Below the pieces are notes generated by a model that saw only the letters and a program-made list of their open reading frames with translations, ran no database searches and had not been told where the DNA came from. The position numbers and the translations under genes were made by a program. Shown here in pieces: positions 12,777-26,243 of a stretch of DNA of 64,000 nt (position 1 is the first letter of the stretch; each line of letters starts with the position of its first letter). The stretch comes from a bacterium (GTDB taxonomy: Bacteria; Hinthialibacterota; Hinthialibacteria; Hinthialibacterales; Hinthialibacteraceae), in contig CAXXSM010000130.1 of NCBI GenBank assembly GCA_963663405.2, positions 64,001 to 128,000 of the forward strand, in the 5' to 3' direction.

Positions 12777-13650
12777 GTGGAGAATATGCAATTTTTCCAC
12801 GGAGTGGTAAATGTACATCTTATTATTATAAGAACACTGCCATACTGGTCTTTCGTATCATTTAAAATGTGTCTCAATTCATTTGTGATACATTGTTTGT
12901 AAGTAGGAATAATAGTGTTATAAATATTTAATTATATTGTTTTATTGGACTTAGATTCTTCCTATATAGAATTCGCTTTAGCGTTTTTATATCGATTCGA
13001 TTCTGGTTGTATCATTTCTAGTTGTTTTGAGACAGTTTTTGGTCGATTTATTCAAATAGAGATTTAGCACGGAATACATTGAATTGATTATGTTTACGAG
13101 AATTTATTCGAAATTTTAGAATTGATTTATATCTGGTATAGTTTTTGTATTATTTAATCAAACAATAAAGAAATCCCAATAAACTTGATGTATAATTTTT
13201 TAGTAGTATCATACGATTTTTAGATTAAATAAGTTTTCTTTTTTTGGGGATGTCAGGAACAGAGCAGTGTAAGAATGGAAAACGTTCATTGACTGTACCC
13301 AAATATGTATTAATAAAAAATAACCCCTTTTCAACCATAAGGAAAGGTGCTATGGTAGTATAATTGATTAAATTTTTGATGTTGTTTTTGTTTTTTGTGA
13401 TATAATATTTATAAGTTTTTAAATGCAGTGGATAGAAAGATTGTTTTTTATAATTGTAATTATTCATTGCACTTTATTTTTAATTTAAAAAAGAGCACGC
13501 ATTTACTGTAAATGTTTAATCGTTTTTTTTTACTATCGAAAAGGAGGTGTAAAAAATTTTTAGTAGAAATATGCTCTTTTTTAGGGTTGATTAATACGTT
13601 GTATTTGATTTGATTTTGATAGTGTTGAACTTGAGAGTATTTATTATAAA

Positions 13651-13725
13651 GTGGAAGTGATGATCTGTTCTTTTTTAATTGGTCGCCAAGAAAAGGGCAG
13701 GGAGCTAGTGGCGAATCCCCTCCAC
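13651..13725 (+). ncRNA. c-di-GMP-II-like riboswitch aptamer, copy 1
   Basis: GTGGA/TCCAC P1, TGA/GA kink-turn, stem TCTGTTCTTTT/AAAAGGGCAGG, pseudoknot TCGCCA/TGGCGA; 40 nt upstream of ATG. Confidence 0.75.
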
Positions 13726-13765
13726 GCAATCAAATAGTAAACGATTACGTTAAGGAGGATTACTA

Positions 13766-14737
13766 ATGTATAAGAGTAAAATTTCCATTCTTCTGTTTAT
13801 TGGGGCTGTCAGTTTAGTATTGGCCCCGGTGTGCTCAGCACAGACGCCTACGCCTATACCAAATCCTGGTTCTCCCGTTCCTTGGTGTGATAAGGATTTC
13901 ATGGTTCATTTTAATAACGCAGGGCAGGGATATAGTGGGGATAGCTATTTTCTTTCTATATTCCAAGGAGCCTCTCCGGTTCCTGAAAGTGATTTTTCTG
14001 ATTGGTTTTGGAATACATTTATCAATGATCCAAATTATCAAGATGTATTGGACCTTTGGCTCATACAAGTGAATGCCGTTGTTGATCCCGATATTACAAT
14101 GGATGATCTTAAAACAGGGCTGTATCAAATGATGCATGATTTACTGTATGGGACTCCAGCTCCTCCTCCTATCACCTTGATTCCTGGAAGCCATTTTCCA
14201 GGATGGTGTATCGACTTATCAAAAAAGATACAATTGAATTATTGGCATTACTGTCCTTGGGTGCAGCGGACAATAAATGCGAATATGCTTCTTCCGTTTA
14301 GCTCACCAGTTGATCCAAACCTTAACGCTTGGTGCAATAATCCAGCAAATCTAGTTAAAGTGAATTATCTGCTTTCCGAATGGCGTAGAAATGCAATGGT
14401 TGATTTTGGATTGGGTTTCGAACCTTCGTGGCAGGAAATACAAGCGGCGATTTGGATACTGTTAGATGAAAATGTTGGTGGAAATCCATCCGGTCCGGAT
14501 CCCGATCCCAGCGATCCCAATCCAGCATTGCGTGGATATATTACCTGGGATGTCAATAATGTGGATGATGTAATTGCTGCAATAAATGCGAAACCTTCGA
14601 GTTTTTACGATAATTTGTTATTGTTCCAACTCTATCGTGTGTGTGTTATTGTATATAATGGTGATACAGAACAACGTACGCTGGTTGAGATGGAAGCCTT
14701 TTTATACTACATGTTGATGCAGTATGGCTTGATTTAA
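13766..14737 (+). CDS. Secreted thioester-domain (TED/TQXA-like) protein, copy 1
   Basis: Signal peptide; GWC148IDL, IQ226AAIW230 and EQ303RTLV motifs; GGAGG RBS. Confidence 0.7.
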   Translation: MYKSKISILLFIGAVSLVLAPVCSAQTPTPIPNPGSPVPWCDKDFMVHFNNAGQGYSGDSYFLSIFQGASPVPESDFSDWFWNTFINDPNYQDVLDLWLIQVNAVVDPDITMDDLKTGLYQMMHDLLYGTPAPPPITLIPGSHFPGWCIDLSKKIQLNYWHYCPWVQRTINANMLLPFSSPVDPNLNAWCNNPANLVKVNYLLSEWRRNAMVDFGLGFEPSWQEIQAAIWILLDENVGGNPSGPDPDPSDPNPALRGYITWDVNNVDDVIAAINAKPSSFYDNLLLFQLYRVCVIVYNGDTEQRTLVEMEAFLYYMLMQYGLI

Positions 14738-14767
14738 ATGACCATTTAGGTTGTTAGCGAGTTGAAG

Positions 14768-14798
14768 AAAGGGGATCATTCAAAATGATCCCCTTTTT
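14768..14798 (+). terminator. Intrinsic terminator
   Basis: AAAGGGGATCATT-loop-AATGATCCCCTTT hairpin with T tail. Confidence 0.8.
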
Positions 14799-14799
14799 A

Positions 14800-14887
14800 T
14801 ATGATAATGAGTTTCAAAGACTTACTCGTTCTAGATTTCACCCGTAACTCATTTTCGCGTTGTGATCTCAACATGATGGTTTATGCG
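14800..14887 (+). mobile_element. Degenerate copy of dispersed ~95-bp MITE-like element
   Basis: ATGATAATGAGT...ACTCATTTTC followed by the tail TTGTGATCTCAACATGATGGTTTATGCG, as in the copies at 18067, 29887 and 39133. Confidence 0.6.
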
Positions 14888-15527
14888 AAACGGTTCTTAT
14901 ATGGCCAATCTGCAAATACATCTTTTTAATAGCTTTCATGTACGGGTGGAAACTTTTATGGATTCTTCAATTTGAAGATTTTGTAGAAACCAATTATTGA
15001 TTGAATCAGACAAACTTCTAATTTTGATTTTCAATTCATGTTTTTTGTATGTTTTTTATATTTCATATGATTTAACACTAATGAAATAAATTGAGTTGAA
15101 TAAGGTGTTTAGGATTTTCCATTCCATTCTATTCTTCCTTTGATGTAACGTTTTTTTCTGCATTAATTTAGTTTCAATTCTATCGATTTAAAGGATTTTG
15201 TGTAATAAATTAGTCATGTAAAAGGTTGTTCGACGAATAAAAAATACATAAAAACCTCTTTTCATTAATAAAAATTATGCTATAGTAATAGTAGTTAACA
15301 TTATATTCCTGATGCGTTGATCTTGTGTGGTGAGTATATTCTTATCTCGTTTTTTTTTGCTTGTAATGAAATATTGCATTTTATCTGTGGGTCTTTTTCT
15401 ATAATAAGTTCGTACAAATCGATATCAAAAGGAGAATTGCATGACAAAAATGATTGGATTTCTTTTTTAATATTTTTGTATTGAAGGTTGAGGTGATAGT
15501 GAGTTCCTTATTTGAATAATAATTATA

Positions 15528-15603
15528 GTGGAAGCGTTGAACCATTTTTTCTTTAATTGGTCGCCAATAGAAGAATGGGAAGCAAGTGGCGAACCCCCTC
15601 CAC
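15528..15603 (+). ncRNA. c-di-GMP-II-like riboswitch aptamer, copy 2
   Basis: Same core as copy 1 with a compensatory stem CCATTTTTTCT/AGAAGAATGG. Confidence 0.75.
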
Positions 15604-15645
15604 GCAATCGAAATCTTAAAATGATTACGTTCAGGAGGATTTAAA

Positions 15646-16617
15646 ATGTATAAGAAAGTAATACCCAGTCTTTTCATCATAGGGGCTGTCGGCCTTCTCT
15701 TGGCGCCGTTTAGCTCAGCCCAGACACCTACTCCATTGCCGAATCCTGGTTCTCCCGTTCCTTGGTGTGATAAGGATTTCATGGTTCATTTTAATAACGC
15801 AGGGCAGGGATATAGTGGGGATAGCTATTTTCTTTCTATATTCCAAGGAGCCTCTCCGGTTCCCGAAAATGATTTTTACGATTGGTTTTGGAATACATTT
15901 ATTAATAATCCAAATTATCAAGATGTATTGGACCTTTGGCTCATACAAGTGAATGCCGTTGTCGATCCCGATATTACAATGGATGATCTTAAAGCGGGGC
16001 TGTATCAAATGATGCATGATTTACTGTATGGAACTCCAGCTCCTCCTCCTATCACCTTGATACCTGGAACCCATTTTCCAGGATGGTGTATCGACTTATC
16101 AAAAAAGATACAATTGGATTACTGGCATTACTGTCCTTGGGTGCAGCGGACAATAAATGCGAATATGCTTCTTCCGTTTAGCGCGCCAGTTGAGCCAAAC
16201 CTTAACGCTTGGTGCAATAACCCAGCAAATCTAGTTAAAGTGAATTATTTGCTTTCCGAGTGGCGTAGAAACGCAATGGCTGATTTTGGATTGGGTTTCG
16301 AACCTGCGTGGGAGGAAATACAAGCGGCGATTTGGATTCTGATAGATGAAAATGTTGCTGGAAATCCATCCGGTCCGGATCCCGATCCCAGCGATCCCAA
16401 TCCAGCATTGCGTGGATATATTACCTGGGATGTCAATAATGTGGATGATATTATTGCTGCATTAAATACGAAACCTTCGAGTTTTTACGATAATTTGTTA
16501 TTGTTCCAACTCTATCGTGTGTGTGTTATTGTATATAATGGTGATACAGAGCAACGTACGATGGTTGAGATGGAAGCCTTTTTATATTATATGTTGATGG
16601 AGTATGGTCTGATTTAA
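15646..16617 (+). CDS. Secreted thioester-domain (TED/TQXA-like) protein, copy 2
   Basis: 323 aa; mature part differs from copy 1 at about 19 residues by eye; same Cys, IQAAIW and Gln motifs. Confidence 0.7.
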   Translation: MYKKVIPSLFIIGAVGLLLAPFSSAQTPTPLPNPGSPVPWCDKDFMVHFNNAGQGYSGDSYFLSIFQGASPVPENDFYDWFWNTFINNPNYQDVLDLWLIQVNAVVDPDITMDDLKAGLYQMMHDLLYGTPAPPPITLIPGTHFPGWCIDLSKKIQLDYWHYCPWVQRTINANMLLPFSAPVEPNLNAWCNNPANLVKVNYLLSEWRRNAMADFGLGFEPAWEEIQAAIWILIDENVAGNPSGPDPDPSDPNPALRGYITWDVNNVDDIIAALNTKPSSFYDNLLLFQLYRVCVIVYNGDTEQRTMVEMEAFLYYMLMEYGLI

Positions 16618-16650
16618 ACGTACGTTTTATGTTTTTTAGTAAGATAAAAG

Positions 16651-16682
16651 AAAGGGGATCAATTCACGATCCTCTTTTTTTA
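16651..16682. terminator. Bidirectional intrinsic terminator
   Basis: AAAGGGGATC-loop-GATCCTCTTT hairpin flanked by A and T tracts, between convergent genes. Confidence 0.7.
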
Positions 16683-16698
16683 TCTTCATTTGACGATT

Positions 16699-17931
16699 TT
16701 AATGCAACCACCAGTTCGCTACACTCGTTCCACACTCGTATGGATTCAGATTTAGTTGAGGAGAAAATGCGAAACCGTTCTGAAAATATTCATCAATCAA
16801 ACCAGTAAAAACTGGTTCACCCAAATGATCTATGAGAATCAATACATCATTCCAATCACCGCAATCTAACAGATTCCCTCGAATATCGAACGCGGTCAAC
16901 TCTGTATTCCCAAGTTCTACATAAGAAGCTATATTCGAGATGGAAGTGATTAGATTGTTCGTACAATCTATATATTTATAAGTGGCGCTTGGATGGATCA
17001 TTAGTTCTTCCAGACGATTATTACTACAAGTAAGATAGCGCAAGGAAACATTGACTGATAGATCAAGGATTTTAAGTTGGTTATTATTGCAAAAAAGAGA
17101 TTTTAAAAGGGGATTCTGAGACACATCCAGAACGTTCAATTGATTGTTATAGCATTCGATATAATCCAACGCTAGGCTTTCCGTCAAATCGAGCGAGGTG
17201 ATCTGATTGTCCGGACAGTAGAGTTTTAATAATGAGGGAAGGTTTGAAACATTCAAATTCTCAAGTTGATTTCGGCTGCAATCGAGATACTGTAAAGATT
17301 CGAGATTCGATACGTCTAAGTGTGTCAAGAGATTATCGTCACAATAGATTTTATTATACGGCGCCTCCTTTGAAAGGATCAGAGAATTGATTTGATTTCT
17401 TTTACAACTAATAAATTCCATCTCAGGATTATTTAATAGATCTAAACTCTCTAATTGATTTTCTATACATTCAAGCTGGTTTAATATGGAATTGCTAGAA
17501 AGATCGAGGGTAGTGATTTGATTCCATGAGCAATACAGAAATTTCAATCGAGTGTTTTCTGAAACGTCTAAACTACTAATCAAATTATGGGCGCAACTCA
17601 GCTCTTTTAAGTCTGTATTATTCCATAAGTCCAAATGGGTCAAGGCGTTGTCTGAACAATTTAATCTGGTGATGTTGGTGAAATACTCGATTCCGGTTAA
17701 ATCTTGAATTTCTTTCCTGACACATAAAAATGATTCTGTGACCGCCGCCACTTGCTCCGCCGTAAATTCCCCGCCAGGATCGACTCCTATATATTCTTCA
17801 ACCACAGTACGAAAATTCGGATCAGGGAAATTTTCCGGTGTGTTGATATTTTGAGCAAGGGAGTCTGCGATTGGAAAGAGAAAAAGAAGAAGAAACGCGG
17901 TTGTTTTGGATGAACTCACAATGTTGAACAT
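16699..17931 (-). CDS. Secreted leucine-rich-repeat protein (internalin-like cap FPDPNFR)
   Basis: 21-aa repeats LxxLxCxxNxLxxLDL; signal peptide; start MFNIV matches paralog MFDIA; ends TSVANWWLH. Confidence 0.9.
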   Translation of the reverse strand: MFNIVSSSKTTAFLLLFLFPIADSLAQNINTPENFPDPNFRTVVEEYIGVDPGGEFTAEQVAAVTESFLCVRKEIQDLTGIEYFTNITRLNCSDNALTHLDLWNNTDLKELSCAHNLISSLDVSENTRLKFLYCSWNQITTLDLSSNSILNQLECIENQLESLDLLNNPEMEFISCKRNQINSLILSKEAPYNKIYCDDNLLTHLDVSNLESLQYLDCSRNQLENLNVSNLPSLLKLYCPDNQITSLDLTESLALDYIECYNNQLNVLDVSQNPLLKSLFCNNNQLKILDLSVNVSLRYLTCSNNRLEELMIHPSATYKYIDCTNNLITSISNIASYVELGNTELTAFDIRGNLLDCGDWNDVLILIDHLGEPVFTGLIDEYFQNGFAFSPQLNLNPYECGTSVANWWLH

Positions 17932-18066
17932 AAATTTTACACCTTTTTTCAAATTGATTTAAGATATATCTAAACTTGACGAAACTTATGACGAAACGGT
18001 GAGAAATCAAATAATCTATTACGAATTCATGGTTGAAACAATGTAAAATTTTCATATGCAGGTTTG

Positions 18067-18161
18067 TATGAAAATGAGTTTCTAGGATTTTCTCCATCGA
18101 GATTTCTTCTGCAACTCATTTTCATTTGCGTGTTGTAATCTCAATCATAATGGTTTATACG
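18067..18161 (+). mobile_element. Dispersed MITE-like element
   Basis: Inverted repeats ATGAAAATGAGT / ACTCATTTTCAT plus a conserved tail; absent from the paralogous region near 23200. Confidence 0.65.
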
Positions 18162-18841
18162 TAACGCTTCTTATATGGCCAATCTGCAAATTCATCTTTC
18201 AAATGGCTTTCATGAAAGGCGGGAAGCCTTTATGGATTCTTCAACCAGAAGAATATGCAGAAACCAATTATTGAGTGGATCAGTCAAAATTCTAATTTCG
18301 ATTTTCATTTCCTATTTTTTATGCGTTTTTTTTATTATATCATGAATTTTATAAGATTCCTGCTGTTTTTTATATTTCATACGATCTTACAGTTTTGTAA
18401 TAAATTGAGTTGAATAAGGTGGTTAGGATCTTCCTTTCAATCCTTTCCTTCCTTGGATGTAACGTTTTTTTCTTTATTAATTTTGTTCTAATTCTATCGA
18501 TTTAAAGGATTCCATGTAAAAATTTTATCATTAAAAAGGTTGTTCGACGAATAAAAAATACAAAAAAGTCTCTTTTCATCAATGAAAATTATACTATAGT
18601 AATAGTAGTTAACATTTTATTTCTGATGCGTTGATCTTGTGTGGTGAGTATATTCTTATCTCGTTTTTCTTTTACTTGTAATGAAATATTCTATTTTTTC
18701 TGTTTGTCTTTTTCTTATATGAGTTCATACAAATCGATAGTAAAAGGAGAATTGCATGATAAAAATGGTAGGATTCCTTTTGTAATATTTTTGTATTGAA
18801 GTTGAGGTAATAGTGAGTTCAATATTTGAATAATAATTACA

Positions 18842-18916
18842 GTGGAAGCATTGAACCATTTTTCTTTAATTGGTCGCCAATAGAAAAATGGGAAGCAAGT
18901 GGCGAACCTCCTCCAC
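18842..18916 (+). ncRNA. c-di-GMP-II-like riboswitch aptamer, copy 3
   Basis: Same core; perfect stem CCATTTTTCT/AGAAAAATGG. Confidence 0.75.
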
Positions 18917-18950
18917 GCAATCAAAAAATGGTTACGTTTTGGAGGTAAGA

Positions 18951-19092
18951 ATGTTTAAGAAATTAATTGTTAGTTTTTGTTTTATAGGAATTACCGGTTT
19001 ATTTCTGTCTCCCATAATCATGGCCCAGTCACCAATATCTTAAACTTTGCCTGTTCCTTGGTGTGGGGTGGATTATCAGGTTGAATTTCTGA
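18951..19092 (+). pseudogene. Truncated TED-protein paralog (signal peptide and first residues only)
   Basis: Hand translation MFKKLIVSFCFIGITGLFLSPIIMAQSPIS*TLPVPWCGVDYQVEF matches PVPWCDKDFMVHF. In-frame TAA at 19041; homology ends at a transposase fragment. Confidence 0.8.
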
Positions 19093-19094
19093 GG

Positions 19095-19280
19095 CGCCAG
19101 TTCACGATGCCAGCGAAGAATCGTATCCAGGGTGAAAATTGTCGAGATTTCCTTCAAAATTTTCCGCTCCAGAGTCTTTCCTTTGACCGCGAGCCGGGCC
19201 CTCTGTTAATCGTTGAGTAGAATATGCTTTTTGCCTTGGACTTCGAGGAGTAACTCGACCTCTGTCGCAGACAAAACGTT
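19095..19280 (-). mobile_element. Transposase remnant (N-terminal part of an integrase-core/rve IS transposase)
   Basis: Hand translation ...[45 protein letters not shown] resembles the LAxKGKxLGRK...[10 protein letters not shown] motif of such transposases; internal stop. Confidence 0.65.
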
Positions 19281-19281
19281 G

Positions 19282-20718
19282 TTAGTGAATGTCCCAGTTT
19301 TTCACTTCTACAGATCCGCCTATTTGAAACGTCTGGTAATACCGTGTAGTAAAACTATTCGGCCCTTCCGGTGGGGAATAAATGAGCATCTCACCAAAAT
19401 TATTGTCAGCGCCTCGTGAGATGACTATGTTCCCAGCCGGATCGAATTGAGCGTCTCGGATCGGATCCGCCCCCGCGATAAACGAGTCAAGTTCCGTACC
19501 ATCATCCATACTTAAGATATACACCATCCCATCAATCCCGTTACCAGAGGCTGCGAACCAACGACGCCCTTCATCTAAATCCAAAGACGGCCGGTCAACA
19601 ATGGCTTCCCATTCGCTCCGCATGAATTGCTCTCCATCTGGTCTAAATCCGTAGAGATCTCCCACCGAAGTCGTTACGTAGATATTTCCCTCAGAATCGG
19701 CAACGAGACTGAAGGGGGGCCCAGCGGCGGGAGGATCATAATTTAAATCCGGATCGAGAAATACTTCAGGAGGAGTCGTCCAGGGAAGCGCGGCGTCATC
19801 GGGTACATTGTATTTCATGATGCTGCCGGGAGTAATGCCGGGCAAGCTATGGTCAATGGTATAAATGACACGTTTCTCTCCCGTGCCCAAGATAAGCATG
19901 TCCGAAATCGTTCCATTCGTTGTAGGCGTTTTGCGGGGTTGGATATCGCCACTGTCTTTTGGCGGCGAATAATCAGCATGTAAGAAGATTTGGAATCCCT
20001 CGTCGGTGAACTCAGAATTACAGATGGTGTTCCACATCGTCCGATTGACATACGTGTTGGTATACACCCGTCCATCCGGCCCGAAGTTAAGCGCAATGGG
20101 CGCGTCATCATTGCTCGCAAAAACAAACGACATGTTGAGTTCCGGGAAAGCCGTGTCCAGCGATCCTCCCCACCAGGTTCCATCCGGAGACATAAAGTAA
20201 ATGCCTTTAAATACGTTTAAAGAATCGATAACCTTCGTTCGATTGACACTATTGCGACGTCCCTGAATGATATAAATTCGTCCAAAATTCGATCTGGATT
20301 GGTCCTTCCCAATTAAAACACCACGAGGACGATGAAAGACGTTTTGGGGATCGACTGGATTGATGCGTTCCCAGCTGGTATGGCCATTGTCCGAAGCGTT
20401 AATTTCAAATGTGTAAGTACCATCGGCAACGACTTGTCCCGCATCATCAAGACCGTCCCAGATAACATGGTTCATACCTTGCGCAGTGGAACCGGACAGC
20501 GTTCGTACAACAACACCATCTGATACACGTAGGATACGTAATTCAACACCGTTATCCGCGGCCTCATTGAGTAAATAATGAAATTCGCCTCCCACGCCTT
20601 CAGTGGAATCGACCTCAACCGACAACTGGCAGGCGAATACATTCGCGTCAGCGGATTTTGGGAGTAAAACAGCCAAACCGAAAATAAACAAATACCCTAA
20701 ATTGGAAAACCGTATCAT
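19282..20718 (-). CDS. Secreted protein, FlgD-Ig-like domain plus beta-propeller-like region
   Basis: Signal peptide; VRTL...WDGLDDAGQVVADGTYTFEI is FlgD-Ig-like; ends VEVKNWDIH. Confidence 0.7.
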   Translation of the reverse strand: MIRFSNLGYLFIFGLAVLLPKSADANVFACQLSVEVDSTEGVGGEFHYLLNEAADNGVELRILRVSDGVVVRTLSGSTAQGMNHVIWDGLDDAGQVVADGTYTFEINASDNGHTSWERINPVDPQNVFHRPRGVLIGKDQSRSNFGRIYIIQGRRNSVNRTKVIDSLNVFKGIYFMSPDGTWWGGSLDTAFPELNMSFVFASNDDAPIALNFGPDGRVYTNTYVNRTMWNTICNSEFTDEGFQIFLHADYSPPKDSGDIQPRKTPTTNGTISDMLILGTGEKRVIYTIDHSLPGITPGSIMKYNVPDDAALPWTTPPEVFLDPDLNYDPPAAGPPFSLVADSEGNIYVTTSVGDLYGFRPDGEQFMRSEWEAIVDRPSLDLDEGRRWFAASGNGIDGMVYILSMDDGTELDSFIAGADPIRDAQFDPAGNIVISRGADNNFGEMLIYSPPEGPNSFTTRYYQTFQIGGSVEVKNWDIH

Positions 20719-20772
20719 GGTTCTTCGTCCTTTCCTTATTTATTTTCCTCTTCATGAATCAAACCACTCAGA

Positions 20773-21600
20773 TTAAGGAACACGAAAATTAGCCGCTTGA
20801 GAGATTTCTTCGGAACTCATCGCTTCCCTGGCATTGGGTGGAAAGGAAAGCAATGCGTCGGCTGTTTCCTTGGCCAATTCACTGTCTGTGGTTTGGATGG
20901 CGAAGTGGATATAGGTAACCGTACTGTTGGCTGGAATCGTTATATCCGTCCAAGCATACCGATAGTCTTCCGAACGCTGGAATACTTCATCGATACCATC
21001 CACTGTTCCATTTGAGTTCCAGACATGACCAACGAAAGGATCACTCCCATCATTGTCACCCGTGATGACATAAGAATCACTGGTTTCCAGTTCCGTATCT
21101 CCGTCGGATGTCGCCACAATATACGTGTGATCATCGGATCCGAGATTGCCGAAAACCGCAATTTCCGCTGAAACCGGTTGATCGGTTGTGTTCGTGAGAA
21201 TTTCCAGCCACCGTCCGTACACTTCCTCTGGAGAAACAAAGAGTTTTCTTTGGACTACCAGAGCCCCCATCGTCTGGGTTTCCCAAACATACTCATTGCC
21301 ATCCGAATCAGGATCGTACTCTTTAATCAAGGCTATATAAGGCCGGAATACCCCATTCTCCCGGACCGCCAGAAAATAGCAGCCGTCATAGGCGTCACTG
21401 CTGCCATCCTCCAGCGCGCCGCTCCTTACACCCGCGTCATAAACCATCCCTTCACCATTCCGTAAATCACCGCATTGGTTGCCGTCTTCATTATCAAATG
21501 GTGGTGGCAGTGTCTGACTGCCCGCATCTACACTCAATAAGAGAATCACCAGCGTTATCCAACTACACCATTGCCATCGTTCATGCTTCATGATGAACAT
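20773..21600 (-). CDS. Secreted hypothetical protein (acidic, beta-rich)
   Basis: 275-aa ORF with hydrophobic N-terminus and GGAG RBS; about 55 bp from the next gene. Confidence 0.7.
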   Translation of the reverse strand: MFIMKHERWQWCSWITLVILLLSVDAGSQTLPPPFDNEDGNQCGDLRNGEGMVYDAGVRSGALEDGSSDAYDGCYFLAVRENGVFRPYIALIKEYDPDSDGNEYVWETQTMGALVVQRKLFVSPEEVYGRWLEILTNTTDQPVSAEIAVFGNLGSDDHTYIVATSDGDTELETSDSYVITGDNDGSDPFVGHVWNSNGTVDGIDEVFQRSEDYRYAWTDITIPANSTVTYIHFAIQTTDSELAKETADALLSFPPNAREAMSSEEISQAANFRVP

Positions 21601-21712
21601 CTCCCTTCATTGATTTAGTATAAGACTGTCAGCTCTCGTACTCTGAATACGAATCTCTCCCCACTAACTGGCAGAAATGCCTTCTATAAATTACAATAAA
21701 TATTATTTATAC

Positions 21713-21742
21713 TAACATAAATTTAACATAACACTAACATAA
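21713..21742. promoter_or_regulatory. Three direct repeats TAACATAA with exact 11-bp period (candidate response-regulator site)
   Basis: Repeats start at 21713, 21724 and 21735, upstream of the 21600(-) gene. Confidence 0.5.
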
Positions 21743-21832
21743 ATAAATTAAGTTAGCAAGACTCCTTACTAAGAATAAAGATCAATTAATTCATCAAAAA
21801 TGATTTGTGTAGATAGGCTTTTTTTGAGAGAT

Positions 21833-23066
21833 CTAATACAAAAACCCAATGGATGACAGGGGTAGCGCATTCATATGGATTCAGAGTATTTTGCGGTGAA
21901 TAGGCGACTCCATTGTTTAAGAATAGGCCATCTTCATCGAAAAATACTGGTTCCCCAATGTGATTCAACAGTGTCTTCACATCGTTCCAGTCCTCGCAAT
22001 CCAGATTGTTTCTCCGAATATCGATCGCGATTAACACTTCGATGTCTTGTTCTACATAGCCGGCTAGATTGGAGATGGAAGATAATTGGTTATCGTTGCA
22101 AGAGAAGCGTATGAATTTCGCATTTGGATGGATCGTTAATTCGCTTCGCTCGTTATCACCACAACTGAGAAAGGACAGCGATTCATTGGCTGAAAGATCG
22201 AGGATATCGAGCTGGTTTCCACTGCAGAAAAGGGATTGTAGTGCGGGATTTTGATATACATTGAGGATCGGCAATTGGTTGTTTGCGTATTCAAGGTAAT
22301 TTAATTTTGCGCTGTTTCCAAGATCGAGTTCCACGATCTGATTATCCGAGCAATAAAGTTTCTCTAATGAAGAGAGGTGAGATACGTCTAAAGTTAGGAG
22401 TTGATTGCGGTTGCAATCGAGAAATCTCAACTCCTCTAAATTCGACATGTTCAAATGAGTCAGTTGGTTGTCATCGCAGTAGATTTTATCGTACGGCGCT
22501 TGTTTTGAAATCACTAACGTTTTTATTTGATTTCTTTTACAACTGAGATAACACATGTTTGGATTGTTTGGTAAATCTAAACTTTCTAACTGATTCTCAA
22601 GGCATTCAAACTAGACCAAGGCTATATTGTCCGATAGATCGATATTTTTGATGTGGTTCCGATAACAGTACAAGTATTTCAATTTGGGGATATCAGAGAC
22701 ATTGAGACTGCTGATTTGATTGTTGTAACAACTCAAAGTCTTTAAATCGGTGTTGTTCCATAAATCCAGGTGGGTCAAAGCATTGTCAGAACAGTATAGT
22801 TCTTGAAGACTCGTAAAGAATTTAATACCGGTCAAATCCTGAATCTAACTCCCCAGACAGATTAGAGGACCTGTCATCAACGCAACATTTTCCGCTGTAA
22901 ATTCATCGCCCGACTCGACTCTCATGAATACTTCAACCGCTGTGCGGAAATTAGGATCGGGAAAATTATCGGGTGTGTTGATGTTTTGGGGTAAGGAATC
23001 TGCAATTGGAAAGAGAAAGAAAAGAAGAAACACGGTTGTTTTAAATGCGCTTGCGATGTCAAACAT
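21833..23066 (-). pseudogene. LRR protein pseudogene, paralog of 16699-17931
   Basis: Three ORF pieces are in one frame, separated by TAG stops at 22845 and 22611 (E and Q in the paralog). A +1 base at 21840-21844 masks the TPVIHWVLY* end. Confidence 0.85.
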
Positions 23067-23886
23067 AAATTTTACAACTTTCTTCTTAATGGACTAAAGA
23101 TATATCAAAACTTGACGAAACTTAGGACGGAACGGTGAAAAACCGGATACTTTTATTACGAATCTATGGTTGAGGCGCTGTAAATAATTCATTGTTAAGA
23201 GTAATAAACGGTTCTTAAAGTCCAATTTGCAAATTCATCTCCCTTTAGGTCTTCATGTAAGGTGGGAAACCTTGATGGTTTCTTAAGGAGATGAACATGC
23301 ATAAACCGATATTTGAATGAATCTGGTTAAACTTTTCATTTCGATTTTCTGATCATCTTTTTTTATGCGTTACTTATTATATCATGATTTAAAATGACTC
23401 CTTCTGTTTTTCATATTTCATGCGATCTAACAATCATGGAATAAATTGAATTGAATAAGGTGGTTAGGATTTTTCTTCCAGTCATTTCCATTCTAGTGTG
23501 TAACGTTTTATGATTCTAATTTTTTTTAAAAATCTATCGATTTAATTGATTTTATGTTAAAATTTAATTAGAAAAGAGGTTATTCGACAAAAAAAAATAA
23601 CAAAAAAACCTCTTTTCATTAATGAATATTGTGCTATAGTAATAGTAATTAACATTATGTACGGGGTGAATTAACATTCTGTATTGATCAGCGTATATTC
23701 TTGTTCTTATTTTTTATGTAATGAAACATTGCGTTGAATTTGTGTTTGAGTTTCTTTTTTTAAAAATTTGAAAAAAAATGAAAAGGAGAATTGTATGCTA
23801 AAAATGTAGGGATTCCTTCTCTAATTTTATTATGATTTTGGTTGAGGTGATAGTAAAGAAAGTGTTTTTAAAAAAACTTGATTAGA

Positions 23887-23961
23887 GTGGAAACGTTGAA
23901 CTATTCTTCTTTAATTGGTCGCCAACAGAAGAATGGGGAGTCAGTGGCGAACCCCCTCCAC
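23887..23961 (+). ncRNA. c-di-GMP-II-like riboswitch aptamer, copy 4
   Basis: Same core; stem CTATTCTTCT/AGAAGAATGG; different downstream hairpin sequence with the same topology. Confidence 0.75.
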
Positions 23962-23991
23962 GAGATTTTTCTCGCGAAGGAGAGAAGAGAA

Positions 23992-24909
23992 ATGAAGAAA
24001 CGATATGTCGTCTTAGTAAGTTGTATTGTTCTTGGTCTGGCTATGGCGCCAGTCAGTTATTCAACTCCATCAGAAGGGCCTTATTATTATCCTCATTTAG
24101 GTCATCTTTTGGAATTTCCCAATGGGCCGAATTGTACTCCTGGAATTGAAGATTATCAAGTAGACAGTTATTTCGGAGTTTCTATTCTTCCATGTGGTGA
24201 TCTTCCGGGATGGATCAATGATGCGATCAATATTTTTGTCGTCTGGTTTGATACACCATATGGTTTGATAAATAAAAGTCCGCGGGAGAGAATTGAAAAT
24301 GCGATTGGACAATCGCTACCTCCAACACAAGATATTGTCGCATGGATTTTCACGTTTATCGTGCCGCCGGATATTCCACAAAAGGTGATTCCCGGCTGGT
24401 GCGCCAATCTAAGGGACTACGCGAAATTAAACGATGTGTGTTGTGGGCTGACGATTCATGGAACGGTTGATATTTCTCCTTTAGGATTTTTAGATTGGAA
24501 TTGGTGTAACCGTACGTTGACATCCCGCTTTACTACTCCTATGGTCAATCAATCGGGTAATCTGCTCGAAGTGAATTTCCTGATCGATCAGTTCCGTATG
24601 AATTTCGTGATGTATCCGGATTTAAACACTCGCAATATTTCGTGGCGGGCGATTCAGCGTGTGATTTGGGATTTGACACAGGATTTGAGTCTCCCTGGCA
24701 CTCATCAAAATGGTTATATTTGTCTTACAAACAAAGATTTAGAAGATGTAGATATCCTTAAAACATGGATCGCCGGTTTGGATTTAGAGGGCAATATCCC
24801 GATTTGCGCGTTCTGTTATTTGACGATTGTCATCTATTGTGAAGGTGGACAAGAAATTCTCGTCGAAGTGCCGTGGTGGCTGTATCTGATTCTTTACGAT
24901 TTACATTAA
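23992..24909 (+). CDS. Secreted thioester-domain-like protein, divergent copy 3
   Basis: ATG at 23992 starts a signal peptide (MKKRYVVL); IPGWCANL, AIQRVIW and GGQEILVEV align with the motifs of copies 1 and 2. Confidence 0.65.
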   Translation: MKKRYVVLVSCIVLGLAMAPVSYSTPSEGPYYYPHLGHLLEFPNGPNCTPGIEDYQVDSYFGVSILPCGDLPGWINDAINIFVVWFDTPYGLINKSPRERIENAIGQSLPPTQDIVAWIFTFIVPPDIPQKVIPGWCANLRDYAKLNDVCCGLTIHGTVDISPLGFLDWNWCNRTLTSRFTTPMVNQSGNLLEVNFLIDQFRMNFVMYPDLNTRNISWRAIQRVIWDLTQDLSLPGTHQNGYICLTNKDLEDVDILKTWIAGLDLEGNIPICAFCYLTIVIYCEGGQEILVEVPWWLYLILYDLH

Positions 24910-25007: not shown

Positions 25008-26243
25008 TTAATAAACGGTCCAATCCGGCACGGCTGTTTCACAATCGAATGGATCGAGATCGTTTTGTGGAGAATAACCGAATCCATACGTTAATTGTGT
25101 TTGATTCCAAGGAACAAAAACAGGCTCCCCGATTCGATCCAATAATAGAATCACATCCTCCCAATCATCACATTGAAGATTGTTATATCGAACGTCTACA
25201 AGCGCTCCCAACGCGGCGCCGATATATTCATTGCTTACGATATTTGATAGATTCGACAGCTGATTGTTTTGACATTGAAGGGAATTCAAAACAGCGCTAT
25301 TCGGTAAGATAAGTTCTGTCAAGAGATTGTCTTGGCAGATACATTGTCCAAGGGATTCCGCTGATGAAACATCCAATTGCGTTAATTGATTGGAGGAACA
25401 GATTACGGATCCTAGAGCGATATTCTGAGTGAGATCGATCGTATGGAGAAGATTATCGCGGCAATCCAGTGTTTCCAATGTGACGTTGCTCGATAAATCC
25501 AACGTTGTGAGCCGGTTGCTGGCGCAGTTGATTTCGGCGAGGGCCGCGCAGCCGCTTAGTTCGAGTGTTCCCAGCTGATTGTCATAACAATTCAATACTT
25601 CCAAGGATGTGTTGTTAGAGATGTCCAAACTCGCAAGTTGGTTGCTGAAACATTTGAAGGTTTGAAGTTTATCGTTCTCCGATATCGAGAGTTCATTCAA
25701 GCGGTTGCGGCTGCAATCGGCGATTTGAAGTTTTTTGTTGTAGGAGAGATCCAACGTCTCGATTTGATTGATAAAGCAATGAAGATGTTTCAGGTTGGTG
25801 TTGTTGAAAAGTTCGAGACTTGTGAGTTCGTTTTGATCACAGACCAGTATTTTTAATCCAGTGTTTTCATAGAGATATAACTCTGTCAATTGATTCGCGT
25901 GACAGTTCAACTCCTCCAAGGCGGTATTCATTGTTAAATCTATACTTTCCAATAGGTTATTGTTGCATATAAGTTTGGTTACATTAGGGAAAAAATGAAT
26001 GCCGGCCAAGGAACTGATCTCACGGGCTGGACATTCCAAGGCCTTTGTGGCCGCCGCCGCTTCTTCCGCCGTGAAAGCGCCGTCTGACTCAACCTCCATA
26101 TATTCCTCAACCGCCGCCCGGAAATTTGGATCGGGAAAATTCTCTTCTGTGTTGATGTTTTGCGCGAAGGAATGAATGCTTGTTAAGGCCAGAAGTAGAA
26201 TCAGAAAAGCAGTTTTCCCAGAATTCTTACATACGTTCATCAT
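25008..26243 (-). CDS. Secreted leucine-rich-repeat protein
   Basis: Same AQNINTxENFPDPNFR cap and 21-aa LRRs; ends TAVPDWTVY. Confidence 0.9.
   Translation of the reverse strand: MMNVCKNSGKTAFLILLLALTSIHSFAQNINTEENFPDPNFRAAVEEYMEVESDGAFTAEEAAAATKALECPAREISSLAGIHFFPNVTKLICNNNLLESIDLTMNTALEELNCHANQLTELYLYENTGLKILVCDQNELTSLELFNNTNLKHLHCFINQIETLDLSYNKKLQIADCSRNRLNELSISENDKLQTFKCFSNQLASLDISNNTSLEVLNCYDNQLGTLELSGCAALAEINCASNRLTTLDLSSNVTLETLDCRDNLLHTIDLTQNIALGSVICSSNQLTQLDVSSAESLGQCICQDNLLTELILPNSAVLNSLQCQNNQLSNLSNIVSNEYIGAALGALVDVRYNNLQCDDWEDVILLLDRIGEPVFVPWNQTQLTYGFGYSPQNDLDPFDCETAVPDWTVY

What the first reader, a model, noticed from the sequence alone, without database searches (positions are those of the whole stretch)
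13718..13765. Conserved RBS-sequestering expression platform predicts a translational ON switch
Seen: the aptamer's 3' strand CCTCC is complementary to the SD (GGAGG/GGAG), and an intervening hairpin brings them together. The hairpins are ACGCAATC/GATTACGT (copies 1 and 2), ACGCAATC/GGTTACGT (copy 3) and CGAGA/TCTCG (copy 4: different sequence, same topology), each with a 3-nt bulge before the SD. The same TCCAC bases are needed for P1. Inference: ligand binding stabilises P1 and frees the RBS.
Basis: partly seen in the sequence, partly recalled or inferred. Interest (0 to 1): 0.7.

Follow-up and report, generated by a model that had tools for sequence, protein, structure and literature searches.

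The report
Riboswitch leaders that hide the ribosome site
Four gene leaders carry a divergent cyclic-di-GMP class II type riboswitch whose last bases can pair either with the start of the sensor or with the ribosome-binding site, an ordinary kind of translational ON switch attached to an unusual variant of the sensor.

Summary
All four leaders (13644, 15521, 18835 and 23880, + strand) contain CCUCC overlapping the P1 3' strand, an intervening hairpin, and GGAGG or GGAG 7-9 nt before the ATG.

The sensor is a c-di-GMP-II-like aptamer. It scores 33.9-43.8 bits against RF01786, below the gathering score of 53.5. P1, P2, P3 and the pseudoknot are intact, and P3 covaries at 9 of 9 pairs.

Folding puts the SD in a helix with the aptamer's 3' strand. 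SD unpaired probability is 0.00-0.15 with P1 blocked and 0.41-0.80 with P1 enforced. No terminators lie in the leaders. The same topology recurs in 10 of 16 related leaders.

Two caveats apply:
- Linker shuffles show the hairpin is not needed for sequestration.
- Covariation in the platform is weak.

The mechanism is a textbook anti-SD/P1 competition, and class II switches are already known to be ON switches.

The more novel points are:
- The pocket guanine G73 is replaced by C in this subclass.
- There are 22 copies in one genome.
- The regulated proteins look like thioester-domain adhesins.

The parts
13644..13732 (+). Copy 1 aptamer, c-di-GMP-II-like. P1 5' strand is GUGG 13651-54 and the conserved A is 13655. 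The pseudoknot loop is GGUCGCC 13681-87 and its 3' strand is GGCGAAUCC 13710-18. The junction J is CCU 13719-21 and the P1 3' strand is CCAC 13722-25.
   Evidence: RF01786 scores 43.8 bits, E=3e-06, against a gathering score of 53.5. Structure counts on 16 relatives give 95% of cells paired.
13719..13723 (+). Copy 1 anti-SD CCUCC, made of junction CCU plus the first two bases of the P1 3' strand.
   Evidence: It pairs with 13754-58 in the MFE.
13724..13750 (+). Copy 1 intervening hairpin, ACG-C-AAUC / GAUU-A-CGU, with a C.A mismatch and an 11-nt loop. Its first two bases (AC) are the last two bases of P1.
13754..13758 (+). Copy 1 Shine-Dalgarno GGAGG, 7 nt before ATG 13766. It is preceded by the 3-nt bulge UAA 13751-53.
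   Evidence: SD unpaired probability is 0.07 with P1 blocked and 0.80 with P1 enforced.
13766..14737 (+). Regulated gene 1: a 323-aa secreted protein with a thioester-domain-like C-terminal half.
15521..15609 (+). Copy 2 aptamer. P1 is GUGG 15528-31 with CCAC 15600-03.
   Evidence: RF01786 scores 33.9 bits.
15597..15638 (+). Copy 2 platform: CCUCC 15597-601, hairpin 15602-09/15623-30, bulge UCA, SD GGAGG 15634-38. ATG is at 15646 and the CDS runs to 16617.
18835..18922 (+). Copy 3 aptamer. P1 is GUGG 18842-45 with CCAC 18913-16.
   Evidence: RF01786 scores 35.2 bits.
18910..18945 (+). Copy 3 platform: CCUCC 18910-14, hairpin 18915-22/18930-37, bulge UUU, SD GGAGG 18941-45. ATG is at 18951. The ORF stops after 30 codons, so this is a gene remnant.
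23880..23968 (+). Copy 4 aptamer. P1 is GUGG 23887-90 with CCAC 23958-61.
   Evidence: RF01786 scores 39.3 bits.
23955..23982 (+). Copy 4 platform: CCUCC 23955-59, hairpin CGAGA 23961-65 / UCUCG 23970-74, spacer CGAA, SD GGAG 23979-82. ATG is at 23992 and the CDS runs to 24909. The protein is a distant paralog of gene 1.
   Evidence: Paralogy is 24% identity, E=4e-08.

Best explanation
Each of the four leaders is a riboswitch of the c-di-GMP class II lineage joined to a translational expression platform. Without ligand, the last bases of the aptamer (junction CU plus P1 3' strand CCAC) pair with the Shine-Dalgarno GGAG(G) and the base of a small hairpin. This forms one long bulged helix that hides the ribosome-binding site. 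With ligand bound in the three-way junction, stacked on the top of P1, P1 (GUGG/CCAC) and the pseudoknot are locked, the CUCC strand is withdrawn, and the SD is exposed. Translation of a secreted, thioester-domain-like (putative adhesin) protein then turns ON. The architecture and its mutual exclusivity are shown from sequence and folding. Ligand identity (most likely c-di-GMP), ligand-dependent switching and the ON direction in vivo are inferred.
For: Aptamer:
- The four sites are the only Rfam matches in the window at E<=0.1, and all are to RF01786 over the full model, positions 1-84.
- On 16 aligned relatives, 95% of cells are paired, against 42-51% for slid registers. P3 has compensatory changes at 9 of 9 pairs, and 0 of 500 shuffles reach the observed values.
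- The pseudoknot covaries between subtypes in the same genome and its relatives: CGCC/GGCG, CACG/CGUG, CGCG/CGCG.

Switch:
- The MFE of full leaders 1 and 3 (and of leader 2 only; its MFE has P1 closed) holds the CCUCC:GGAGG helix.
- All four P1 3' bases are paired in the OFF helix in copies 1-3.
- SD accessibility with P1 blocked versus enforced is 0.07/0.80, 0.11/0.41, 0.00/0.64 and 0.15/0.59. ddG is +3.1, -0.9, +7.0 and -1.5 kcal/mol.
- The genome background for SD accessibility has a median of 0.45, with 1.7% at or below 0.02.
- No terminator-like site lies on the + strand in any leader.

Comparative:
- The SD is at least 50% paired to the aptamer 3' strand in 10 of 16 variant-type and 2 of 8 G73-type leaders.
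- The hairpin differs in sequence but holds the same position in copy 4, C55, L024, L039 and L042.
- The last two P1 bases and their OFF partners co-vary across lineages: AC/GU, AA/UU, AU/AU.
- Copy 4's protein is only 24% identical to copy 1's, yet the aptamer and the topology are kept.

Biology:
- The genome has 8 GGDEF matches.
- Class II riboswitches are described as ON switches (PMC11477304 and PMC7583470, passages read).
- In C. difficile they control a thioester-domain protein (PMC11477304).
- RNA-library contig X9 record 10 spans 13699-13849, from the aptamer into the CDS.
Against: - No experiment was done.
- All four copies fall below the Rfam gathering score.
- The pocket guanine that reads one ligand base (G73 in 3Q3Z numbering) is C here, so c-di-GMP binding is not assured.
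- Linker shuffles leave the SD just as sequestered. The complementarity may therefore simply follow from the conserved CUCC of this aptamer subtype meeting a universal GGAG.
- The platform alignment of 7 leaders has only 1 compensatory pair, a value reached by 244 of 500 shuffles.
- Copies 2 and 4 retain partial SD pairing in the P1-on state, 0.41 and 0.59 unpaired.
- 6 of 16 variant leaders show no such pairing.
- The RNA contigs are short and shallow (depth 2-4) and may be DNA carry-over.
- No EAL domain was found in this genome, which is 82% complete.
Confidence: 0.65

Rival explanations
1. The mechanism is the same, but the ligand is not c-di-GMP. This CC/NCU-junction subclass would have an altered pocket and sense another cyclic dinucleotide or a related nucleotide, or read the guanine of c-di-GMP by a C-G Watson-Crick pair instead of by G73.
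For: - In 3Q3Z, G73 recognises G-beta, A69 recognises G-alpha, A70 intercalates, and a non-canonical pair tops P1 (PMC13715770, whole text).
- I mapped these residues onto the Rfam consensus AGUgGUGCAACC.GgCc. The window copies read GGCGAA[U/C]CC-CCU-CCAC. G73 and g74 become C(C) and U, and A13 can now form a canonical A-U pair, seen in 15 of 16 sequences.
- Other aptamers of the same genome and its relatives keep G73, with J = GG, GU, GC or GA. Two pocket types therefore coexist.
- The scores are below the gathering score for RF01786, RF03169 and RF03170.
- A single-nucleotide deletion is known to retarget a class II aptamer to cGAMP (PMC13715770).
Against: - A C at that position could still read guanine.
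- A61, A69 and A13, the pseudoknot and P2 are kept.
- The genome has GGDEF enzymes.
- The gene context, secreted or surface proteins, is typical of c-di-GMP control.
- The mapping to 3Q3Z numbering is my inference from a consensus string, not a structural alignment.
Confidence: 0.25
2. The complementarity is incidental. CUCC is conserved for aptamer reasons, any nearby GGAG would pair with it on paper, and the real control (if any) acts at another level such as transcript stability, Rho, or an upstream element.
For: - Linker shuffles do not change sequestration.
- Covariation in the platform is weak.
- 6 of 16 variant leaders lack the pairing.
- A conserved upstream block with an SD-ATG mini-ORF lies 90-110 nt before aptamers 2-4, and RNA contig X9 record 11 covers it.
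Against: - The P1 3' strand is fully consumed by the OFF helix.
- The distance to the SD is always short, 13-36 nt.
- There are no terminators.
- The P1-end dinucleotide and its OFF partner co-vary across lineages.
- SD accessibility for copies 1-3, L024 and L039 lies in the lowest 2% of the genome background.
Confidence: 0.12
3. Transcriptional ON switch by anti-termination, as in the characterised C. difficile class II riboswitches.
For: Class II riboswitches in C. difficile are transcriptional ON switches (PMC11477304, passages).
Against: - No stem-plus-U-tract lies on the + strand between any of the four aptamers and its ATG.
- The platform helix ends in the SD and is followed by an A-rich spacer.
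Confidence: 0.04

Closest known systems
c-di-GMP-II riboswitch (Rfam RF01786; crystal structure 3Q3Z)
   Same: - It has the P1-P2-P3 plus pseudoknot architecture.
- It keeps the conserved GA after P1, the UGA/GA junction, the GGAG..AGU strand and the bulged A's in the pseudoknot strand.
- It sits upstream of secreted or surface proteins.
- It follows ON logic.
- Tandem doublets and triplets occur elsewhere in the same genome, as already reported for this class (PMC9481103).
   Different: - It scores 33.9-43.8 bits, below the gathering score of 53.5.
- The junction after the pseudoknot is CCU instead of Gg. This loses the G73 equivalent and turns the A.G cap of P1 into an A-U pair.
- The pseudoknot is CGCC/GGCG with a U-A pair in place of G-C.
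- The host is an uncultured phylum with 35 species genomes, not Firmicutes or Deinococcus.
c-di-GMP-II-GCG and c-di-GMP-II-GAG variant motifs (RF03170, RF03169)
   Same: They belong to the same Rfam clan. The window copies give partial matches of 35.6-38.3 bits to GCG and 27.9-31.6 bits to GAG.
   Different: The copies are below both gathering scores (47.9 and 40). I could not see the consensus of these models or the paper's supplement, so I cannot say which positions define them.
SD-sequestering translational ON riboswitches, e.g. the Vibrio vulnificus add adenine riboswitch (recalled, not read here)
   Same: The P1 3' strand doubles as part of an anti-SD helix. Ligand-stabilised P1 releases the SD. 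There is no terminator.
   Different: The aptamer class is different. Here the anti-SD includes junction nucleotides that in the canonical class contact the ligand.
C. difficile Cdi2 riboswitches (CD3246 thioester-domain protein, CD2831, pilA1, cmrRST)
   Same: The class II lineage turns on adhesion-type genes, including a thioester-domain protein (PMC11477304).
   Different: Those act by anti-termination or through a group I ribozyme. Here control is by direct SD occlusion.

Membership tests
c-di-GMP-II riboswitch (RF01786) | Covariance-model score at or above the curated gathering score (53.5 bits) | tested here: not met
   The scores are 43.8, 39.3, 35.2 and 33.9 bits. There are 0 matches at gathering in the window and 0 of 20 own-genome hits over the cut-off.
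c-di-GMP-II riboswitch (RF01786) | P1, P2 and P3 helices plus a loop-to-3'-strand pseudoknot, supported by covariation | tested here: met
   One search gives 95% of cells paired, 12 pairs with double-sided changes, and 0 of 500 shuffles as high. Pseudoknot cells are 99.1% paired within the subtype, but that subtype was partly selected by pattern. The pseudoknot does covary between subtypes.
c-di-GMP-II riboswitch (RF01786) | Ligand-contacting nucleotides of 3Q3Z: A13 cap, A61, A69, A70, G73 | tested here: not met
   A13, A61 and A69 are present. A70 is A, or U/C, depending on the pseudoknot register. The G73 equivalent is C in all four copies and absent as G in all 16 variant sequences. The residue roles come from PMC13715770 and the mapping is my inference.
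c-di-GMP-II riboswitch (RF01786) | Binds c-di-GMP | not testable with these tools
   This needs in-line probing or ITC.
Translational ON riboswitch (anti-SD / P1 competition) | The P1 3' strand overlaps a strand complementary to the SD, so that P1 and SD occlusion are mutually exclusive | tested here: met
   All four P1 3' bases are paired downstream in copies 1-3, and 2 of 4 in copy 4.
Translational ON riboswitch (anti-SD / P1 competition) | No intrinsic terminator between aptamer and start codon | tested here: met
   The only + strand terminator-like site in 13300-24100 is at 16647-16681, after gene 2.
Translational ON riboswitch (anti-SD / P1 competition) | Ligand-dependent ribosome access or translation | not testable with these tools
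   This needs reporter fusions or toeprinting.
c-di-GMP-II-GCG / -GAG variants (RF03170 / RF03169) | Score at or above gathering (47.9 / 40 bits) | tested here: not met
   The window copies score 35.6-38.3 and 27.9-31.6 bits.
Thioester domain (TED) adhesins (downstream protein) | [YFL]C-phi-zeta Cys motif, TQxx-phi-W helix motif, phi-Q-zeta-phi-phi Gln motif (PMC4450167), and the TED fold | tested here: inconclusive
   - Invariant C148, Q226, W230 and Q303 lie in WCID, IQAAIW and EQRTL.
- The top 11 Foldseek rows are all TEDs, but the best E-value is 0.0096.
- VIA gives Z 4.1-6.0 to five TED entries, and the next row is at Z 2.1.
- The model's mean pLDDT is only 52.9.
- Pfam gives no hit and the PDB profile search gives 0 hits.

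The most novel reading that the evidence does not exclude
The CGCC-pseudoknot / NCU-junction aptamers form an undescribed subclass of the c-di-GMP-II fold. There are at least 12 in this genome, plus G028, G031 and five metagenome contigs. In this subclass the ligand-reading G73 and the A.G cap of P1 are replaced by C and an A-U pair, and the replaced junction bases themselves form the anti-SD. The subclass would either recognise c-di-GMP by a new Watson-Crick mode or sense a different signal. It coexists with canonical-pocket class II aptamers in one cell, which would give two separate riboswitch regulons.
Probability: 0.3. Interest if true: 0.65.

Novelty: new variant of a known kind. Interest (0 to 1): 0.42.

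Why it matters
The platform itself is a standard design, so it mainly confirms that these leaders are working riboswitches and tells an annotator that the genes are induced, not repressed, by the signal.

Four wider points are of more interest:
- Curated models miss all 22 copies in this genome.
- A consistent change at a known ligand-contacting position defines a subclass whose specificity is open and easily testable in vitro.
- The junction bases that changed are the same bases that occlude the SD. This gives a compact example of sensor and platform sharing nucleotides.
- The regulon consists of thioester-domain-like, LRR and beta-propeller secreted proteins. This suggests second-messenger control of surface adhesion in an uncultured rhizosphere-associated phylum. 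It also extends thioester-domain-like proteins beyond the Gram-positive bacteria where they were described (PMC4450167).

Tried and rejected
- **Rfam at gathering threshold:** 0 matches in the window.
- **Pattern scan of genome contigs:** 13 loci. 12 were chance matches inside coding DNA of unrelated bacteria and only L031 was real (it is the same locus as L023).
- **Metagenome scan:** 5 loci, all real.
- **Search of the whole phylum with my own model R1:** only 35 genomes exist, and 4 have a match.
- **Linker shuffles** to show that the hairpin is needed: no effect.
- **Column-wise covariation of the platform:** not significant.
- **Sigma-70 promoter scan:** 29 sites against 36 expected. Only a weak GTGATA-16-AATAAT ending at 15520 lies before aptamer 2. 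No TSS could be assigned.
- **RNA contigs:** no cover over leaders 3 and 4 or over the 5' half of aptamer 1. Contigs cannot show starts.
- **EAL domain:** no match in a genome that is 82% complete.
- **PDB sequence-profile search with the protein family:** 0 hits.
- **Pfam on the 323-aa and 298-aa proteins:** 0 families.
- **Papers not held:** Lee 2010 and Smith 2011.
- **Supplements:** those of PMC5737381, which define the GAG/GCG variants, were closed.
- **Leaders left out of the folding counts:**
  - C55:4057, which has no clean pseudoknot motif.
  - C27:4913 and C55:7678, which are degenerate and were found late.
  - The upstream members of tandem arrays, which do not abut an ORF.

Full report
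**What is there**

The window holds four leaders on the + strand, at 13644-13765, 15521-15645, 18835-18950 and 23880-23991. They share an 85-90-nt structured element followed by a short platform and a strong Shine-Dalgarno.
- CCUCC at 13719-23, 15597-601, 18910-14 and 23955-59.
- GGAGG at 13754-58, 15634-38 and 18941-45, and GGAG at 23979-82.
- Hairpin arms ACGCAAUC/GAUUACGU in copies 1 and 2, ACGCAAUC/GGUUACGU in copy 3, and CGAGA/UCUCG in copy 4.
- A 3-nt bulge (UAA, UCA, UUU) in copies 1-3.

Two corrections are needed. The 8-bp hairpin of copies 1-3 has a C.A mismatch in the middle. In copy 4 the spacer is 4 nt, and the MFE uses a CCU/AGG register.

**What the sensor is**

Rfam gives no match at gathering thresholds. 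With E-value reporting, the four sites are the only matches in the window at E<=0.1. All are full-length matches to c-di-GMP-II (RF01786), at 43.8, 39.3, 35.2 and 33.9 bits against a cut-off of 53.5.

The window's genome is 8.44 Mb in 170 contigs and 82% complete. It has 20 such sub-threshold matches, and 22 with a model built from this subtype. These include two triple tandems (C38, C106) and one double tandem (C18).

I aligned 16 aptamers of the window's subtype. They comprise 4 from the window, 5 from other contigs, 2 from relatives and 5 from metagenome contigs. On this alignment the P1/P2/P3/pseudoknot structure is 95% paired, against 42-51% for slid registers. P3 shows compensatory changes at 9 of 9 pairs, and no shuffle of 500 reaches the observed values. 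The pseudoknot is invariant inside this set, which was partly chosen by a pseudoknot pattern. It does covary between subtypes: CGCC/GGCG, CACG/CGUG and CGCG/CGCG. This is a genuine member of the class II fold lineage.

**A pocket difference**

PMC13715770 (whole text read) summarises the 3Q3Z pocket as follows:
- The first P2 pair is A14-U60.
- A61 forms the ceiling.
- A69 reads G-alpha.
- A70 intercalates.
- G73 reads G-beta.
- A non-canonical pair at the top of P1 forms the floor.

I placed these on the Rfam consensus ...GccAGUgGUGCAACC.GgCc.... The window copies read ...AGUGGCGAA[U/C]CC-CCU-CCAC. A13, A61 and A69 are kept. The G73-g74 junction is replaced by C-C-U (UCU or ACU in some relatives). 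The conserved A13 can pair canonically with the new U, which it does in 15 of 16 sequences.

Other aptamers in the same genome and two above-threshold relatives (L021 at 63.9 bits, L022 at 60.3 bits) keep G at that position. The copies are also below the cut-offs of the two Rfam variant models, with GCG at 35.6-38.3 bits and GAG at 27.9-31.6 bits.

This mapping is my inference.

**The platform**

P1 is GUGG/CCAC, for example 13651-54 with 13722-25. The OFF helix uses CCUCC (junction CCU plus the first CC of P1) against GGAGG. It uses the remaining AC of P1 as the base of the hairpin. P1 and SD occlusion therefore cannot coexist.

The full-length MFE structures of copies 1 and 3 contain the OFF helix. 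Copy 2's does in the longer construct, but its MFE has P1 closed. Copy 4's MFE has P1 closed.

| Copy | SD unpaired, P1 5' strand blocked | SD unpaired, P1 enforced | Energy difference, kcal/mol |
|---|---|---|---|
| 1 | 0.07 | 0.80 | +3.1 |
| 2 | 0.11 | 0.41 | -0.9 |
| 3 | 0.00 | 0.64 | +7.0 |
| 4 | 0.15 | 0.59 | -1.5 |

The energy differences come from secondary structure alone. This is a range that pseudoknot plus ligand energy could tip.

The background was 600 strong-SD long ORFs of the same genome. The platform-only values of copies 1-3 (0.01-0.02) lie in the lowest 1-2%, where the background median is 0.45. No terminator-like site lies in any leader.

**Comparative evidence, for and against**

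I examined 24 leaders that directly precede an ORF. The SD is at least half paired to the aptamer's 3' strand in 10 of 16 variant-type and 2 of 8 canonical-junction leaders.

The hairpin keeps its position but differs in sequence:
- ACG-C-AAUC in copies 1-3 and L041.
- ACA-G-AAUCU in L042.
- CGAGA in copy 4.
- AAUAUAA in C55.
- None in L024, where CUCCAUG pairs directly with CAUGGAG.

The last two P1 bases and their OFF partners change together across lineages: AC/GU, AA/UU, AU/AU. Copy 4's protein is only 24% identical to copy 1's, so conservation of the aptamer and the topology is not just recent duplication.

Three results count against the reading. A column-wise count on the 7 alignable platforms gives 90.5% pairing against 31-47% for slid registers, but only one compensatory pair, which 244 of 500 shuffles reach. 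Shuffling the linker leaves the SD just as sequestered, 0.03 against 0.01 for copy 1. The hairpin therefore adds about 2-3 kcal/mol but is not what brings the strands together. Finally, 6 of 16 variant leaders show no such pairing.

**Expression**

Four metatranscriptome runs labelled rhizosphere hold contigs 99-100% identical to gene 1. One 151-nt contig spans 13699-13849, from the aptamer into the CDS. Another spans 15423-15574, from about 100 nt upstream of aptamer 2 into the aptamer. This argues weakly against a TSS that lies only downstream of the aptamer. Depth is 2-4, and DNA carry-over cannot be excluded.

**What is regulated**

Genes 1 and 2 encode 323-aa secreted proteins that are 91% identical. 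Gene 4 is a distant paralog. Copy 3 precedes a remnant with an in-frame stop after 30 codons.

The family is very rare, with 10 hits among 1.84 billion representatives, and it has no Pfam match. Its invariant residues C148, Q226, W230 and Q303 sit in WCID, IQAAIW and EQRTL. These fit the three thioester-domain motifs described in PMC4450167 (passages read).

A low-confidence model (mean pLDDT 52.9) matches only thioester domains at the top of the fold searches:
- Foldseek ranks 1-11 are all thioester domains, with a best E-value of 0.0096.
- VIA gives Z 4.1-6.0 for five entries, and the next row is at Z 2.1.

I take this as suggestive, not proven.

Other riboswitch-led genes in the genome encode LRR proteins (5), PD40 beta-propeller proteins (2) and unknown secreted proteins (5). 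The genome has 8 GGDEF matches.

**Comparison with what is known**

Class II c-di-GMP riboswitches are described as ON switches. In C. difficile they act by anti-termination or through a group I ribozyme, and one controls a thioester-domain protein (PMC11477304, passages). A review states that the ligand-bound form turns translation ON (PMC7583470, passages). Tandem class II arrays, 59 doublets and 9 triplets, are reported (PMC9481103, passages).

Searches of the held library for 'c-di-GMP-II' with 'expression platform', 'Shine-Dalgarno', 'G73' plus 'variant', 'cGAMP' plus 'variants' plus 'specificity', and for 'c-di-GMP-II-GAG' found no description of a CCU-junction subclass or of a direct anti-SD platform for this class. 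The two primary papers and all supplements could not be read, so this is not proof of absence.

**Verdict**

The ON-switch reading is the best explanation, at about 0.65 confidence. The mechanism is ordinary. The aptamer subtype is the more interesting part.

Noticed in passing
13766-14737, 15646-16617, 23992-24909: The regulated proteins form a very rare family, with 10 hits in 1.84 billion representatives. Their invariant Cys, Gln-x-x-x-Trp and Gln fit thioester-domain (covalent adhesin) motifs, and the only fold matches are thioester domains. Such domains were described as exclusive to Gram-positive bacteria (PMC4450167).
   Followed up: partly
18951-19043: The gene after leader 3 is a remnant. 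It has an in-frame TAA after 30 codons. Similarity to the paralogs (PVPWC) continues briefly and is then lost. The riboswitch in front of it is still intact.
   Followed up: yes
15432-15470, 18748-18785, 23782-23815 (and 13541-13595): A conserved block with AAAGGAG, an ATG and a 4-9-codon mini-ORF lies 90-110 nt upstream of each aptamer. The peptides are MTKMIGFLF and MIKMVGFLL in copies 2 and 3, and 4 codons in copy 4. A GGATTCCTT core and TTGAGGTGATAGT follow. An RNA-library contig covers the copy 2 block. Its function is unknown.
   Followed up: partly
G000 contigs C38:19821-20076, C106:58402-58659, C18:33777-33950: Two triple tandems and one double tandem of class II-like aptamers lie upstream of small secreted proteins. 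In total one 8.4-Mb genome has 22 aptamer matches, while 31 of the other 34 genomes of the phylum have none with the same model.
   Followed up: partly
G000 contigs C149, C55 (three copies), C27, C6, C85: Other riboswitch-led genes encode LRR_4 proteins (the same family as the window's 16699-17952 and 25008-26243 on the - strand) and PD40 beta-propeller proteins. C27:4913 and C55:7678 have degenerate pseudoknots and may be decaying copies.
   Followed up: partly
13727/13747, and the same positions in L040, L041 and L042: The platform hairpin keeps a 1x1 mismatch at the same position with different identities. It is C.A in copies 1-3 and L041, G.G in L042 and U.C in L040. The AAUC/GAUU part is conserved in sequence even in GC-rich metagenome relatives.
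   Followed up: no
G000 whole genome: There are 8 GGDEF domain matches but no EAL match at E<=1e-10. The genome is 82% complete. HD-GYP was not searched.
   Followed up: no
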